Below, piece by piece: positions 7,383-15,626 of a stretch of DNA of 31,278 bases (positions are counted from its first letter, which is position 1; every line of letters begins with the position of its first letter). Source of the stretch: Octopus sinensis (taxonomy: Eukaryota); assembly GCF_006345805.1 (NCBI RefSeq), contig NW_021832200.1, positions 1 to 31,278 of the forward strand, written 5' to 3'. A program made the position numbers and the translations under genes. Under the pieces are notes generated by a model that had not been told where the DNA came from, searched no databases, and saw nothing but the letters and a program-made list of their open reading frames with translations.

Positions 7383-7600
7383 ACAATGAATATAAAGTAT
7401 TATAGCCATCTCAATATGGCTGACCACAAGGGGGGTGGGGTGTTACTGTATCTTTTTAGCCCCAGGAGATCATCGACTCCAGCTGATCTCCTGGGGCTAA
7501 AAAGCTACAGTAACCTTTGAGGTTAGCCATATTGAGATGGCTAAAATACTTTACATTGTCGAGCGATTACTGTTTACATCTCGTTCTGAGATTTAATAAT
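7383..7600. mobile_element. Inverted-repeat element with unique tail (Penelope-like pLTR architecture), E3
   Basis: Arms ~7383-7472 and 7484-7559 are imperfect reverse complements; the tail 7560-7600 reads TAAATCTC-AGAAC-GAGAT on the minus strand, a motif shared with E1, E2 and E4. Confidence 0.6.
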
Positions 7601-8078
7601 ACAATAAATATAAATTTTTACATACGCCATCTTTTCATGCATTTGTGATGTTTCCTGGGATTATTAGATGTCAAAGATCTTTTAACACTCAGGCACCCGC
7701 AGCCAGCTGACCCAAGCGACCCAACCAATACATGGAATATAAAGGTTTACAGTAAAATCTTGTGCTATCAATGACAAAGGTGTTCACATCAGAATCACAT
7801 ACAGTTTTATTCTCCAGGGCCTTGTTATTTGACTGACACTCCCATTTACTCTTACCTTACAGACATAGGATCTTTAAAACCTTCAGCATATTAAACCAAT
7901 TACATTTTTCAAATATGAAATAATTTAATGAAATCAGATCCACACTTTCGTTGATATACGAGTATATTTAAATAAATCTCTCATACGAGTATATTCTATC
8001 AGGTTTTCAAGTTTCGTGCTAGTATATTTTATTTTTCCATTTTCAACTTCGTTACCGAGTTAATAATTTTAACTATAA

Positions 8079-8361
8079 GAAATATTGAATTTCTAAATCT
8101 CTCGTAGAGACATGTACGGTGGTGGGGCGATAGAATGGTTGTATACTGTCAATCTAATAAGAATGTGACAGTAGGGAGTACACCACCGTTGTATAGCCCT
8201 AGGAAGCATCGAGCGCCTCCTGATGCTTTGACACAAATGTATATAAGGACACAGGGAAAAATGTGTCAAAGCCATCAGGAGGCGTTCGATGCTTCCTAGG
8301 GCTATACAGCGGTGGTGTACCCCCTACTGTCACGTTCTTATCAGATTGACAGTATACAACC
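8079..8361. mobile_element. Inverted-repeat element with 57-bp tail and 14-bp TSD, E1
   Basis: Arms 8136-8235 and 8262-8362 (~100 bp), tail 8079-8135; flanking direct repeat AATTTTAACTATAA at 8065-8078 and 8362-8375. Confidence 0.8.
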
Positions 8362-8769
8362 AATTTTAACTATAAAATTCATTTAGGCATAAAGCAACAG
8401 AGCTCTCACCCTGCGAGCCATTGTTTTCCCAACCATTATAATTTCTCTACTCTGTAGAGAAATTATGTAATGCATTTCAGAGATAATAAACAACAGTTGC
8501 TGATAACCTTGGAACATTCATTATTATTGGGTTCTATCTTTAACCCAATTAATTTAATCATTTTAAACCTAGCTTCAGTTTTTATGTTTCTAATGAAACT
8601 CATATTAAACTCTATTAAATTTATGCTCCATTAAACTTTATGTTAGTGTAGTTAATTTTTCATCAGTAGCTGAGTTTTAGTTCTAATTTAACTGATTATT
8701 TAGCTACAAAGACAAGAATTTATTCTAGATTATTCGATAGCATAACTTTTATTGATTTACGAGAATATT

Positions 8770-8902
8770 TTATCTTTTACTTGTTGCAGTCATTAGGCTG
8801 CGCCATGTTGGAGTAACACCTTGTAGAATGTTTTGGTCGAATGAATCATACTTATTTTTATTAAGTACTTACTTTTTGTTAAATCTGGTATTTATTCTAT
8901 CT
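8770..8902 (-). mobile_element. SINE family A 3' fragment
   Basis: TTTTACTTGTTGCAGTCATT...GCCATGTTGGAG...TATTTATTCTATC matches the reverse complement of the family A tail. Confidence 0.7.
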
Positions 8903-8903
8903 A

Positions 8904-9125
8904 TATACATGCATATATGAGTACAGGACATCAATATACATGCATATATGGGTACAGGACATCAAAAAAACGTTGAACACAATAAGAAACGAAAACATAA
9001 AAACAAACACATAGAAACGAACTTTTTTTCAAAACAACGAAAAGAACAGAGTACAAGACATACAACACAAGGAATATTCCCCCTTCTTCAGTTGTCCCTG
9101 TTTCATCTACTCCGCGTTTCGAAAG
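8904..9125. repeat. Unclassified repeat beginning with a 31-bp tandem duplication (TATACATGCATATATGRGTACAGGACATCAA)
   Basis: Tandem copies at ~8904-8934 and ~8935-8965; a hammerhead-like motif set lies on the minus strand at 9079-9125. Confidence 0.45.
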
Positions 9126-9130
9126 TAAGT

Positions 9131-9423
9131 CTTTTCCAGCTGGCTACGGACACATGGTCTGTGTCTGTATACTGTGAGAAGAGAATAACAAACTACTTTT
9201 AAATCTCTGAGCGAGAAATAAGTTGTAACAGTACCGTACAGTAAAGTCTATGTTCCAATGCAACGTGGTAGTCCTGCCTAGGACAATGTTACTACTATTT
9301 AGTCCCAGGAAAATATTTTTTTCCAGCCGGCTACCGGCACATGATCTGTGTCTGTATACTGCGAGCAAGGGAATCTACTGCTCCCTTTCTAGCTGTAGCG
9401 ATACCTGTAGCCAATAAGAATAC
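9131..9423. mobile_element. Partial-tandem element with 187-bp period, E4, same family as E1-E3
   Basis: TTTTCCAGCYGGCTAC.G.CACATG.TCTGTGTCTGTATACTG.GAG repeated at ~9132-9185 and ~9319-9372; contains TAAATCTCTGAGCGAGA and TTTAGTCCCAGGA; ends at (TA)n. Confidence 0.6.
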
Positions 9424-13225: not shown

Positions 13226-13412
13226 CAGCTTAGTGGTTAAGTATTTGGTTCACAGTGGTAAGGCCGTGAGTTCGATACCCGGCAGTGCCTTGCGTCCTTG
13301 AGCAATACACTTTATTTCATGTTACTTTCATTCCGCACAGTTGGCAAAAATGCGAAGCGCATTGTGACCAGCGATGTGTAGCAACATCTGATAACTTGGT
13401 CGGTCACGGTCA
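13226..13412 (+). mobile_element. tRNA-derived SINE family C
   Basis: A-box AGCTTAGTGG, B-box GAGTTCGATACC, tail AATGCGAAGCGCATTGTGACCAGCGATGT shared with 26724-26986 (-). Confidence 0.75.
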
Positions 13413-13431
13413 CAGTCAGGGGGATATATAT

Positions 13432-13838
13432 ATTACTCTTTTACTACTCTTTACTTTGTTCAGTACATTGACTGCGTCCTGCTGGAGCACCCCTTTTTTT
13501 TACTCGAGCAAATCGACCCGGACTATTCTTTGTAAGTCCAGTACTTATTCTATCGGTCTCTTTTTGCCGAACCGCTAGTGACGGGGACGTAAAACACACA
13601 GCATCGGTTGCCAAGCAATGCTAGGGGACAAACACAGACACCAAACACACATGCATATATAATATATATATAATATATACACATATATACTACAGGCTTC
13701 TTTCAGTTTCCGTCTACCAATCCACCACAAGGCATTGGTCGGCCCGGGGCTATAGCAGAAGACAACTTGCCCAAGATGCCCACTCAGTGGGACGAACCCG
13801 CAACCCATGGGTTGGTACAAGCTACTTACCACCAGCGA
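13432..13838 (-). mobile_element. SINE family A copy
   Basis: Full-length reverse complement similarity to 1291-1695. Confidence 0.88.
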
Positions 13839-14341
13839 CATATTTGTATGTATGTTTGCGTATATGTATTATTTTGTGCATTGGATGTAATGTAGTTTGC
13901 TCTTCACGTTTCCCGTTACAGAAAAACCCAATTTCTTCTTCAGCATCTGGTGTCTCCTTCTCTGTGAGCATGTCGTCTCCACATTCAAATATTAATGTTT
14001 CTCCCTATAAACAAAAAAAAAAAAATTTCCTATATATATTCTTCTCTCTCCAGTTTATTTTGTATTTTCGTTGTTTTTTTATGGGGTTTGTCGTAATATT
14101 TTCTCCAGAATTTCCTACATGCTATATACCATTCAGCCACAAATATTCCAGCAATTCTCATGTTTTTGATCGGTGATTCTACCACATTCCTTACACCATT
14201 TTTTTTTCTTCTTCTTCTTTATATATTCGTAACAAGCAATATAACCTATCCTGTATATCCTAGATTCTATACGTGTTACATGTGGGCTGTAATCTTCTGT
14301 ATATATCTATTATTATTAAGCTTATTTTTACACTATTAATA

Positions 14342-14695
14342 TTGTTGTTGTTGTTGTTGTTGTTGTTGTTGTTGTTGTTCATTTGAAAAACACATCAAGG
14401 TTTTCCTTTTCTCACATGAAAAGAAATTAGACGAATCTTTGCCGACAAATATTCTGTTCTTTTCCGCGAAAGTTGTGTAGCTTTGTGTCTCTGTTAGAAA
14501 CTGTCAGTAGTAGTAAGTAGTAGTAGTAGTAGTAGTAGTAGTAGTAGTAGTAGTAGTGGTGGTGGTGGTGGTGGTGGTAGTAGTAGTAGTGGTGGTGGTG
14601 GTGGTGGTAGTAGTAGTAGTAGTAGTAGTTGTGGTGGTGGTGGTGGTGGTGGTGGTGGTAGTAGTAGTAGTAGTAGTAGTAGTAGTAGTAGTAGT
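14342..14695. repeat. (TTG)n at 14342-14379 and (TAG)n/(TGG)n at 14506-14695
   Basis: Directly visible. Confidence 0.95.
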
Positions 14696-14895
14696 TTCGT
14701 CTAGCTTAAATTCACTCACGCCAGTCGATCAAACCTTCAGAGAAGAATTTGTTTTGCGCTATTTTTTTTTACGTCGTGGAAAAGAACAAGTTTTGGTTCA
14801 TTTCGCTAACAAAGACCAGAATCTTTGAACGTTCGCCTGGATGAAAATAAGTTTCATTTTTTAAATATTTTTTATATACTTAAATCTTTGTAAAC

Positions 14896-15098
14896 AGGCG
14901 CAGCAGTGGCTGTGTGGTACGTAGCTTGCTTACCAACCACATGGCTCCGGGTTCAGTCCCACTGCGTGGCAAATTGGGTAAATGTCTTCTACTATAGCCT
15001 CGGACCGACCAAAGCCTTGTGATATGGTAGACGGAAACTGAAAAGAAACCCGTTGTATATATGTGTGTGTGTGTGTGTGTGTGTGTGTGTATGTGTGC
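14896..15098 (+). mobile_element. SINE family A, 3'-truncated at the internal (TG)n
   Basis: GGCGCAGCAGTGGCTGTGTGG head, B-box and CORE-like block. Confidence 0.88.
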
Positions 15099-15466
15099 GA
15101 AGCGCCTAACTGTGTTTATCTGCAATATTGTCTCCATATCGTCTTGGATTTCTCTCGTAGCCACTCTTTACCCCGTGGACTTTGTTCTGAATGAACAATT
15201 TGGTGTTTAAGTCCCAATTCGTTTGAGCACTTCTACGTGTTTTCTGTACTGGGCATCTCTGACTCTCGCCTATTGCCTGTGTCTATGTGCTCATATGCAT
15301 CAAGGTACGTATATAATTATGCATGTGTGCAAAGATGTATGCAATTATATGTGTGCTTACATGTATGTACACACATATGATAGACCGATCATATCAATCT
15401 TTATGTCACACACACACACACACACACACACACACACATATATATATATATATATATATATATATA

Positions 15467-15626
15467 TTAATACTTATCGCCATACTTATATGGCAGTCTT
15501 ATAAATGTAAGACTAAAGCTGTCGCTGATTAGCTCCAAGACTGTCATATATGTATGGCGATAACTATTAATTTCCAGTAACGCTGCCGTAATCTCCTTTA
15601 GAGAGACTTAGTAATTTTAATATTTC
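15467..15626. mobile_element. Inverted-repeat element with 56-bp tail inside (TA)n, E2
   Basis: Arms 15467-15500 and 15537-15570; the tail on the minus strand, GAAATATTAAAATTACTAAGTCTCTC...GAGATTACGG, aligns with the E1 tail GAAATATTGAATTTCTAAATCTCTC...GACATGTACGG. Confidence 0.7.

What the first reader, a model, noticed from the sequence alone, without database searches (positions are those of the whole stretch)
7383..15626. Family of short non-coding tail-plus-repeat mobile elements with a conserved fold but no hammerhead: candidate new retrozyme-like system
Seen: four divergent elements (E3 7383-7600, E1 8079-8361, E4 9131-9423, E2 15467-15626) share ordered motifs when read tail-first. 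(a) TAARTCTC-N5-7-GAGA mini-hairpin in the tail (all four). (b) TAGYCCYAGGA ~85-100 nt later (E1 TAGCCCTAGGA, E3 TAGCCCCAGGA, E4 TAGTCCCAGGA; E2 only TAGTCTTA). (c) TCC-NNN-YGGCT, able to pair back with (b) as TAGCC/GGCT(A) and GGA/TCC around a variable loop. (d) A GACACA-loop-TGTGTC hairpin followed by TATAC (E1 loop TTTTTCCC, E4 loop TGGTC). Loops vary while stems are kept. Three copies are inverted repeats with a one-sided tail, one is a 187-bp direct partial tandem, one has a 14-bp TSD, and two abut (TA)n. Established: direct or inverted pseudo-LTRs with a tail are the hallmark of Penelope-like elements, whose pLTRs usually carry hammerheads. Inference: non-autonomous Penelope-like elements using a different structured RNA (possibly a self-cleaving or RT-recognition motif) that I could not match by eye to hammerhead, HDV or twister.
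Basis: partly seen in the sequence, partly recalled or inferred. Interest (0 to 1): 0.8.

Follow-up and report, generated by a model that had tools for sequence, protein, structure and literature searches.

The report
Hammerhead retrozyme stumps, Penelope-style insertions
The four short repeats are cut-down, mostly mirror-imaged pieces of a 350-base mobile repeat that does carry a hammerhead ribozyme fold, so they likely belong to a known class of RNA-based jumping elements (retrozymes), probably copied into the genome by a Penelope-type retrotransposon.

Summary
The four elements and their motifs are real, but the 'no hammerhead' reading is refuted. Each is a 5'-truncated piece of a high-copy family whose full unit is a 346-365-nt head-to-tail monomer. 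The window copies stop short of it. Young subfamilies have variant cores (U3-A8 in E2/E3, C4 in E1) that Rfam misses; sister subfamilies are canonical.

The subfamilies align colinearly. Copies end at two fixed sites about 45-65 nt apart, invert at variable points, have 12-14-bp duplications and favour (TA)n: the Penelope-like signature. The 187-bp repeat is an internal jump, not a monomer.

Intact Neptune-type Penelope elements exist in this genome, and one locus fuses one of them to E1, but no sequence homology to them was found. Self-cleavage and circular RNA are untested. Verdict: new member of the non-LTR retrozymes. The scan noted similar palindromic Penelope stumps before, in a shark genome.

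The parts
7383..7396 (.). E3 left target-site duplication (14 bp, one mismatch to the right copy; overlaps the end of the inverted arm)
7389..7485 (-). E3 inverted arm, monomer positions +83 to +174 after the predicted hammerhead cut; ends at the inner fixed site
7484..7600 (+). E3 tail-bearing arm, +96 to +217; holds motif (a) at 7579-7595; ends at the outer fixed site
7601..7614 (.). E3 right target-site duplication
8065..8078 (.). E1 left 14-bp target-site duplication
8075..8235 (-). E1 tail-bearing arm, +74 to +235; motif (a) 8094-8110, motif (b) 8194-8204; the last bases overlap the duplication
8237..8362 (+). E1 inverted arm, +48 to +174; holds hairpin (d) 8248-8267 and the complete b/c hairpin
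8362..8375 (.). E1 right 14-bp target-site duplication
9131..9178 (-). E4 second segment, +45 to +92, joined behind the outer fixed site; this jump makes the 187-bp direct repeat
9179..9415 (-). E4 main segment, -6 to +229; begins inside hammerhead stem III, so the core is absent; motif (a) 9200-9216; (TA)n follows at about 9424-9447
15466..15540 (-). E2 inverted arm, +103 to +177; counterpart of motif (b) at 15530-15540; abuts (TA)n 15438-15467
15537..15629 (+). E2 tail-bearing arm, +143 to +235; motif (a) 15592-15610; followed by a short (TA)n

Best explanation
E1-E4 are truncated, mostly inverted genomic copies of four subfamilies of one non-coding 346-365-nt tandem repeat that carries a type I hammerhead fold, and they were likely inserted by the reverse transcriptase and endonuclease of a Penelope-like (probably Neptune-type) retrotransposon, which would make them non-LTR retrozymes. 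Shown: monomer, tandem copies, hammerhead sequence and covariation, two fixed 3' ends, variable inversion points, 12-14-bp duplications, (TA)n neighbours, copies that read through the predicted cut site, and intact RT+GIY-YIG elements in the same genome. Inferred: tandem copies are transcribed; paired hammerheads cut the RNA, probably as dimers; monomers may be ligated to circles; the Penelope protein binds the conserved multi-helix region, nicks AT-rich DNA and starts cDNA at two internal sites, one per DNA strand; the two cDNAs stop early and join, giving a palindrome with a one-sided tail that usually lacks the hammerhead.
For: High copy: 1,653, 2,082, 987 and 1,567 first-look candidates for E1, E3, E4, E2 (not copy numbers). 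Monomers: E1 364-365, E2 365, E3 353-358, E4 346-351 nt; GC 0.40-0.44, circular fold z = -3.2 to -6.5. Hammerhead cores beside the motifs: E1 17 of 17 C4 variant, E2 20 of 21 and E3 18 of 19 U3-A8, canonical in most sister loci. The U3-A8 pattern has 1,359 genome matches against 4 control. The core 3:8 pair covaries (6 CG, 3 UA, 1 UG of 10). Stem III is palindromic in 21 of 21 E2, 9 of 19 E3 and 5 of 17 E1 motifs, with several different palindromes across subfamilies, the mark of dimer-acting hammerheads (PMC4209133). Ends (118 loci): 74 inverted, 64 beside (TA)n; outer 3' ends cluster at +232-243 (30 of 52) and +174-180 (21 of 52) in E1, and likewise in E2-E4; non-TA duplications mostly 12-14 bp. 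PMC11167929 shows that the Penelope tail is the distance between two internal RT start sites. Partner candidates: 775-781-aa RT+GIY-YIG ORFs with a C-x4-C-x2-C linker, also with two 3' ends running into (TA)n. Locus L022 joins one such element, exactly at its own inner end (used by 11 of 30 copies), to a full lap of E1 with no gap and no duplication.
Against: No homology between the monomers and the terminal repeats of any autonomous element sampled (blastn and profile on 50 loci), unlike Xenopus retrozymes. The chimera is one locus; 0 of 60 further family A/B ends are joined to an E copy, and no second copy of the junction was found among 40 scored candidates. Most copies are shorter than or near one monomer, not long arrays. 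Rfam finds no hammerhead in E1 nor in 8 whole loci at E<=0.05. E4 has an A-A mismatch at the base of stem II in 7 of 9 motifs and mixed cores, so it may be inactive. Only 4 of 204 segments start within 4 nt of the predicted cut and 110 cross it: cleaved linear monomers were not the template, which fits circles but equally fits uncut multimers. Loci were best BLAST hits and so favour long, young copies that include the queried end.
Confidence: 0.8

Rival explanations
1. They are 5'-truncated ends (pseudo-LTRs) of autonomous Penelope-like elements that were not sampled, not independent non-autonomous units.
For: Tails, inversions and duplications are those of Penelope ends (PMC3846280, PMC8557442 passages). 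Only 150 of 5,029 GIY-YIG candidates were scored.
Against: Copies run head to tail through whole monomers with no ORF between. Of 180 E loci, 8 (7 independent) had a Penelope ORF fragment within the locus; in those inspected it lay beyond a (TA)n run or other DNA, flanked the E copy as an insertion site, or formed a single chimera.
Confidence: 0.1
2. The hammerhead is a passenger or is dead, and the elements spread from uncut multimeric transcripts using only the conserved multi-helix region; they work like Penelope-dependent SINEs. This can hold together with the best explanation's integration step.
For: No pile-up of 5' ends at the cut site. Hammerhead mutants did not affect insertion by the anole element in vitro (PMC11167929). 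8 of 9 Xenopus dimers did not cleave (10.64898/2026.07.22.740005). U4C lowers activity in vitro (PMC3088659).
Against: Compensatory change at the catalytic 3:8 pair and in stems I-III, and repeated palindromic stem III, indicate selection on the ribozyme fold.
Confidence: 0.25
3. One reading: a Penelope-like non-autonomous family that lacks a hammerhead and uses a new self-cleaving RNA on a 187-nt unit.
For: The window pieces themselves hold no hammerhead and a conserved fold outside the hammerhead is real.
Against: Full monomers of all four families carry the hammerhead fold; the 187-bp period comes from a jump between +229 and +45 in one copy.
Confidence: 0.03
4. Miniature DNA transposons (MITEs) or Helitron/Helentron-derived elements.
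For: Short palindromes with a terminal hairpin in AT-rich DNA.
Against: The inversion point differs from copy to copy, the two ends are unequal by a fixed tail, duplications are 12-14 bp, units are head to tail and hold a hammerhead. No transposon-end library could be searched.
Confidence: 0.02

Closest known systems
Metazoan non-LTR retrozymes (Cervera and de la Pena 2020, PMC7229834), especially the mussel Mytilus galloprovincialis 350-390-bp repeats
   Same: Type I hammerhead in a non-coding tandem unit of 170-400 nt, GC below 45%, strongly self-paired when folded as a circle, thousands of copies, co-occurring with Penelope-like elements.
   Different: Here most copies are dispersed sub-monomer inversions with tails; young subfamilies have U3-A8 or C4 cores; expression, cleavage and circles are unshown. 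The parts read do not describe tails, inversions or a fold shared across families.
Penelope-like element ends with inverted pseudo-LTR and tail (PMC3846280; PMC8557442; Poseidon of Anolis, PMC11167929)
   Same: Direct and inverted repeats, one-sided tail from two fixed ends, target-site duplication, AT-rich or (TA)n targets, type I hammerhead.
   Different: No ORF; tail about 45-65 nt rather than 30-40; no homology found to the local autonomous elements.
Neptune-type autonomous elements in this genome (families A and B; L151, L156)
   Same: (TA)n-abutting ends, two 3' ends, minimal hammerheads with the same core variants (family A U3-A8; youngest family B copies C4), one direct fusion with E1.
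   Different: They encode RT+GIY-YIG and their terminal repeats do not align with the monomers. The clade name rests on the linker motif described in PMC8557442, not on a tree.
Naiad Penelope-like elements (PMC8557442)
   Same: (TA)n targets, tandem and inverted insertions, escape canonical hammerhead searches.
   Different: That paper says cephalopod Naiads are old remnants, whereas E1 and E2 copies are about 95-99% identical. Naiad ORFs were not searched here.
U3-A8 and U4C hammerhead variants (PMC4209133; PMC3088659)
   Same: The same core changes; U3-A8 reported in Schistosoma Penelope-like elements and active in vitro; U4C reported in a viroid.
   Different: Here they sit in hammerheads with six-pair stem I, four-pair stem II and short palindromic stem III, in whole retrozyme-like subfamilies.

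Membership tests
Non-LTR retrozyme | Type I hammerhead in each unit | tested here: met
   Sequence and fold in E1-E3 and sister subfamilies; degenerate in E4
Non-LTR retrozyme | Short head-to-tail monomer of about 170-400 nt | tested here: met
   346-365 nt; two hammerheads 348 nt apart in sister locus L194; most copies are partial
Non-LTR retrozyme | Non-coding, GC below 45%, highly self-paired circle | tested here: met
   GC 0.40-0.44, 59-68% paired, z -3.2 to -6.5 for five E1-E4 monomers; the antisense strand folds with similar z
Non-LTR retrozyme | Self-cleavage of the RNA | not testable with these tools
   needs in vitro transcription
Non-LTR retrozyme | Expression as linear and circular RNA | not testable with these tools
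   only contigs of runs not on record as RNA were offered
Penelope-like insertion signature | Inverted or direct terminal repeat with one-sided tail from two fixed ends | tested here: met
   74 of 118 loci inverted; two end clusters in all four families
Penelope-like insertion signature | Target-site duplication, AT-rich or (TA)n target | tested here: met
   mostly 12-14 bp where not masked by TA runs; 64 of 118 loci beside (TA)n
Autonomous Penelope-like element | RT + GIY-YIG ORF within the element | tested here: not met
   none in the window or within monomers; ORF fragments in 8 of 180 E loci are neighbours or a chimera
Derivative of a local Penelope pseudo-LTR | Sequence homology to the terminal repeat of an autonomous element | tested here: inconclusive
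   none among 50 + 60 loci of sampled families; only 150 of 5,029 candidates scored
Naiad-associated element | Link to an N-terminal-endonuclease ORF; no canonical hammerhead | tested here: inconclusive
   canonical cores occur in sister subfamilies; Naiad ORFs not searched
MITE / Helitron-type DNA element | Fixed symmetric terminal inverted repeats or fixed 5' end with short or no duplication | tested here: not met
   variable 5' ends and inversion points, 12-14-bp duplications

The most novel reading that the evidence does not exclude
The non-ribozyme part of the monomer (hairpins d and b/c, a long-range helix, and two small hairpins flanking the outer end) is a conserved RNA structure that recruits a Neptune-type Penelope protein in trans and fixes its two reverse-transcription start sites without sequence homology to the partner. 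With locus L022 this would be direct genomic evidence that Penelope elements mobilise animal retrozymes, and the variant cores would mean that retrozyme superfamilies are missed by canonical hammerhead screens.
Probability: 0.35. Interest if true: 0.65.

Novelty: new member of a known kind. Interest (0 to 1): 0.42.

Why it matters
Which enzyme moves animal retrozymes, and what RNA structure a Penelope protein recognises, are open in the papers read (PMC7229834 names Penelope-like elements only as candidates; the 2026 preprint rests on co-occurrence and homology). This genome offers many divergent subfamilies with a covarying fold, two mapped ends, a very young intact Penelope family (30 ends at about 100% identity) and one fusion locus, so the in vitro assay of PMC11167929 could be applied directly. 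It is not a new ribozyme class or a new kind of element.

Tried and rejected
Rfam on the whole window gave only microsatellite noise, on 8 loci no ribozyme, on the E1 monomer nothing. Sequencing runs: no RNA holder listed; contigs of four runs guessed to be RNA cover the unit but show neither ends, strand nor expression, so they are used neither for nor against. The b/c pattern found nothing in metagenome contigs. Homology of monomers to autonomous Penelope ends was not found. Enrichment of Penelope ORF pieces near E copies (7 independent loci in about 540 kb against 2 in 400 kb of evenly chosen DNA) is too weak to use, and shared (TA)n targets would explain it. Strand asymmetry is modest: G-U 35 against A-C 23 cells, so the functional strand is set by the hammerhead, not by the fold. 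A pile-up of 5' ends at the cut site was looked for and is absent. A second copy of the L022 junction was not found. Rows dropped before counts: L043 and L073 (same loci as L032, L065); eight duplicate loci. Literature searches for this group plus hammerhead, retrozyme or Penelope terms returned no description of these families; Repbase and Dfam could not be searched, and supplements of PMC4209133, PMC7229834 and the 2026 preprint were not seen, so the families may already be listed there.
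Full report
Setting. The window is a whole 31-kb contig of a 2.72-Gb animal genome, AT-rich and full of microsatellites. Its other repeats look to me like octopus SINEs; that label is recalled and comes from no call.

Observation. A profile built from ten subfamilies finds exactly the four elements in the window at E<1e-6 and nothing in the reversed window. With E1 and E2 left out of the profile their full monomers are still found (E=6e-9 and 4e-7 at genome size), but their short window pieces are not. The b/c pattern has 9,394 genome matches against 0 control. In 400 kb of evenly chosen DNA the profile found 1 hit, so four copies in 8 kb is a local cluster.

The full element. 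Each piece belongs to a high-copy family. Longer copies show head-to-tail monomers of 364-365 (E1), 365 (E2), 353-358 (E3) and 346-351 nt (E4). A strict scan found it in 17 of 30 E1, 13 of 30 E2, 15 of 30 E3 and 0 of 30 E4 loci. An anchored scan gave the C4 core in 17 of 17 E1 motifs, U3-A8 in 20 of 21 E2 and 18 of 19 E3, and mixed cores with an A-A mismatch under stem II in 7 of 9 E4 motifs; most sister loci are canonical. Rfam Hammerhead_1 matches a sister unit at E=1.5e-4, below its gathering score, and misses E1. The U3-A8 pattern occurs 1,359 times against 4 in control. Both variants are published (PMC4209133, parts 1-2 of 4 read; PMC3088659, passages). The window copies cover only +48 to +235 (E1), +103 to +235 (E2), +83 to +217 (E3) and -6 to +229 (E4) relative to the predicted cut, so none contains the core. 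E4's 187-bp repeat is a jump from +229 to +45 in that copy.

The fold. Ten subfamily copies align colinearly (the first 20-25 bases of two rows are flank). A 54-pair structure, drawn from the consensus fold plus the hammerhead, has 91.9% of 540 cells paired and 31 pairs with two-sided change; 0 of 500 shuffles reach this, and slid controls give 29-44%. Ten further copies, aligned by sequence only, pair in 395 of 444 cells (89%) against 32-45% slid; on a tree of all 20 there are 56 compensatory events (23 outside the hammerhead) against 1-9 slid. Those copies were collected by the b/c or U3-A8 patterns, which biases those helices, and this is not an R-scape test. The strongest support is in hammerhead stems, a hairpin just past the outer end (5 of 6 pairs) and a long-range helix (7 of 8).

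How they land. Of 118 loci, 74 are inverted with both 3' ends outward and 64 touch (TA)n; duplications in unique DNA are mostly 12-14 bp. Ends fall in two clusters in every family: E1 +232-243 (30 of 52) and +174-180 (21); E2 +233-242 (26 of 51) and +172-179 (22); E3 +214-222 (27 of 48) and +171-174 (17); E4 +208-232 (18 of 41) and +167-172 (12). The outer end was inside three of the queries and so is favoured; the inner one was not selected. PMC11167929 (parts 1-2 of 4 read) shows that such a tail spans two internal RT start sites. The inner site lies in the loop before the 3' strand of the long-range helix and the outer site just after hairpin (a), which suggests, without showing, that the fold positions the enzyme. 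5' ends are scattered: 4 of 204 segments start near the cut and 110 cross it, so the template was a circle or an uncut multimer.

Partner. GIY-YIG search gave 150 scored of 5,029 candidates, including 775-781-aa RT+GIY-YIG ORFs with a C-x4-C-x2-C linker, the Neptune/Nematis feature in PMC8557442 (passages read). Family B ends are about 100% identical; of 30, 11 stop at an inner site, 13 at an outer site and 6 continue into a tandem copy. Families A and B carry minimal hammerheads, with U3-A8 in A and C4 in the youngest B copies. None aligns with the monomers. At L022 a family B copy is joined at its inner site, without gap or duplication, to a full lap of E1 that ends in (TA)n. The simplest reading is one RT switching templates, but it is a single locus; 0 of 60 other ends show such a join.

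Comparison. Size, hammerhead type, GC and tandem units match metazoan non-LTR retrozymes (PMC7229834, passages and parts 3-4 of 6; PMC7761336 and PMC6765202, passages; preprint 10.64898/2026.07.22.740005, parts 1 and 3 of 5 and passages). Insertion anatomy matches Penelope ends (PMC3846280, passages). Lunse et al. 2017 was not held and is known here only through the review. Seven searches found no account of these families; repeat libraries and supplements were not seen.

Verdict. A real superfamily and a real conserved fold, but with a hammerhead: a new member of the non-LTR retrozymes. Cleavage, circles and the partner's identity remain inferred. Interest 0.42.

Noticed in passing
L022:1497-2421 (G000:C7): Family B Penelope-like 3' end fused seamlessly, at its own inner end, to a full lap of E1; likely a template-switch chimera.
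   Followed up: yes
L244:1028-1730 (G000:C1): Palindromic insertion in which E2 pieces are flanked on both sides by inverted copies of the 5' part of a Penelope-like ORF, both arms sharing the same E2-to-ORF junction; origin unexplained.
   Followed up: partly
L151, L152, L156, L271-L330: Young Neptune-type Penelope families with intact ORFs, an upstream second reading frame, 4.27-kb tandem units in family B, and minimal hammerheads with U3-A8 (A) or C4 (young B) cores.
   Followed up: partly
window 7383-15629: Four copies in about 8 kb against 1 hit in 400 kb of evenly chosen DNA: a strong local cluster, cause unknown.
   Followed up: partly
window 26196-26599, 30809-31147, 17759-18032, 28700-28934: A very common interspersed repeat (up to 74 hits in the 400-kb sample) that occurs here as 184-bp head-to-tail partial dimers; SINE-like by recall.
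   Followed up: no
window 8934-9130: Another interspersed repeat ends exactly where E4 begins; it has hammerhead-like words in the wrong order and did not pass the hammerhead scan.
   Followed up: partly
window 1013-1600 (+): A 196-residue stop-free frame of complex sequence, possibly a transposase fragment; not searched.
   Followed up: no
L173, L177, L184, L191, L194, L196, L197, L199, L243, L255, L256, L263, L268, L166: At least a dozen further subfamilies of the same superfamily, with canonical, U3-A8 or decayed hammerhead cores.
   Followed up: yes
The E1 monomer is held by runs under five organism labels, so close copies are probably shared with related species; only four runs (two labels) were laid.
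   Followed up: partly
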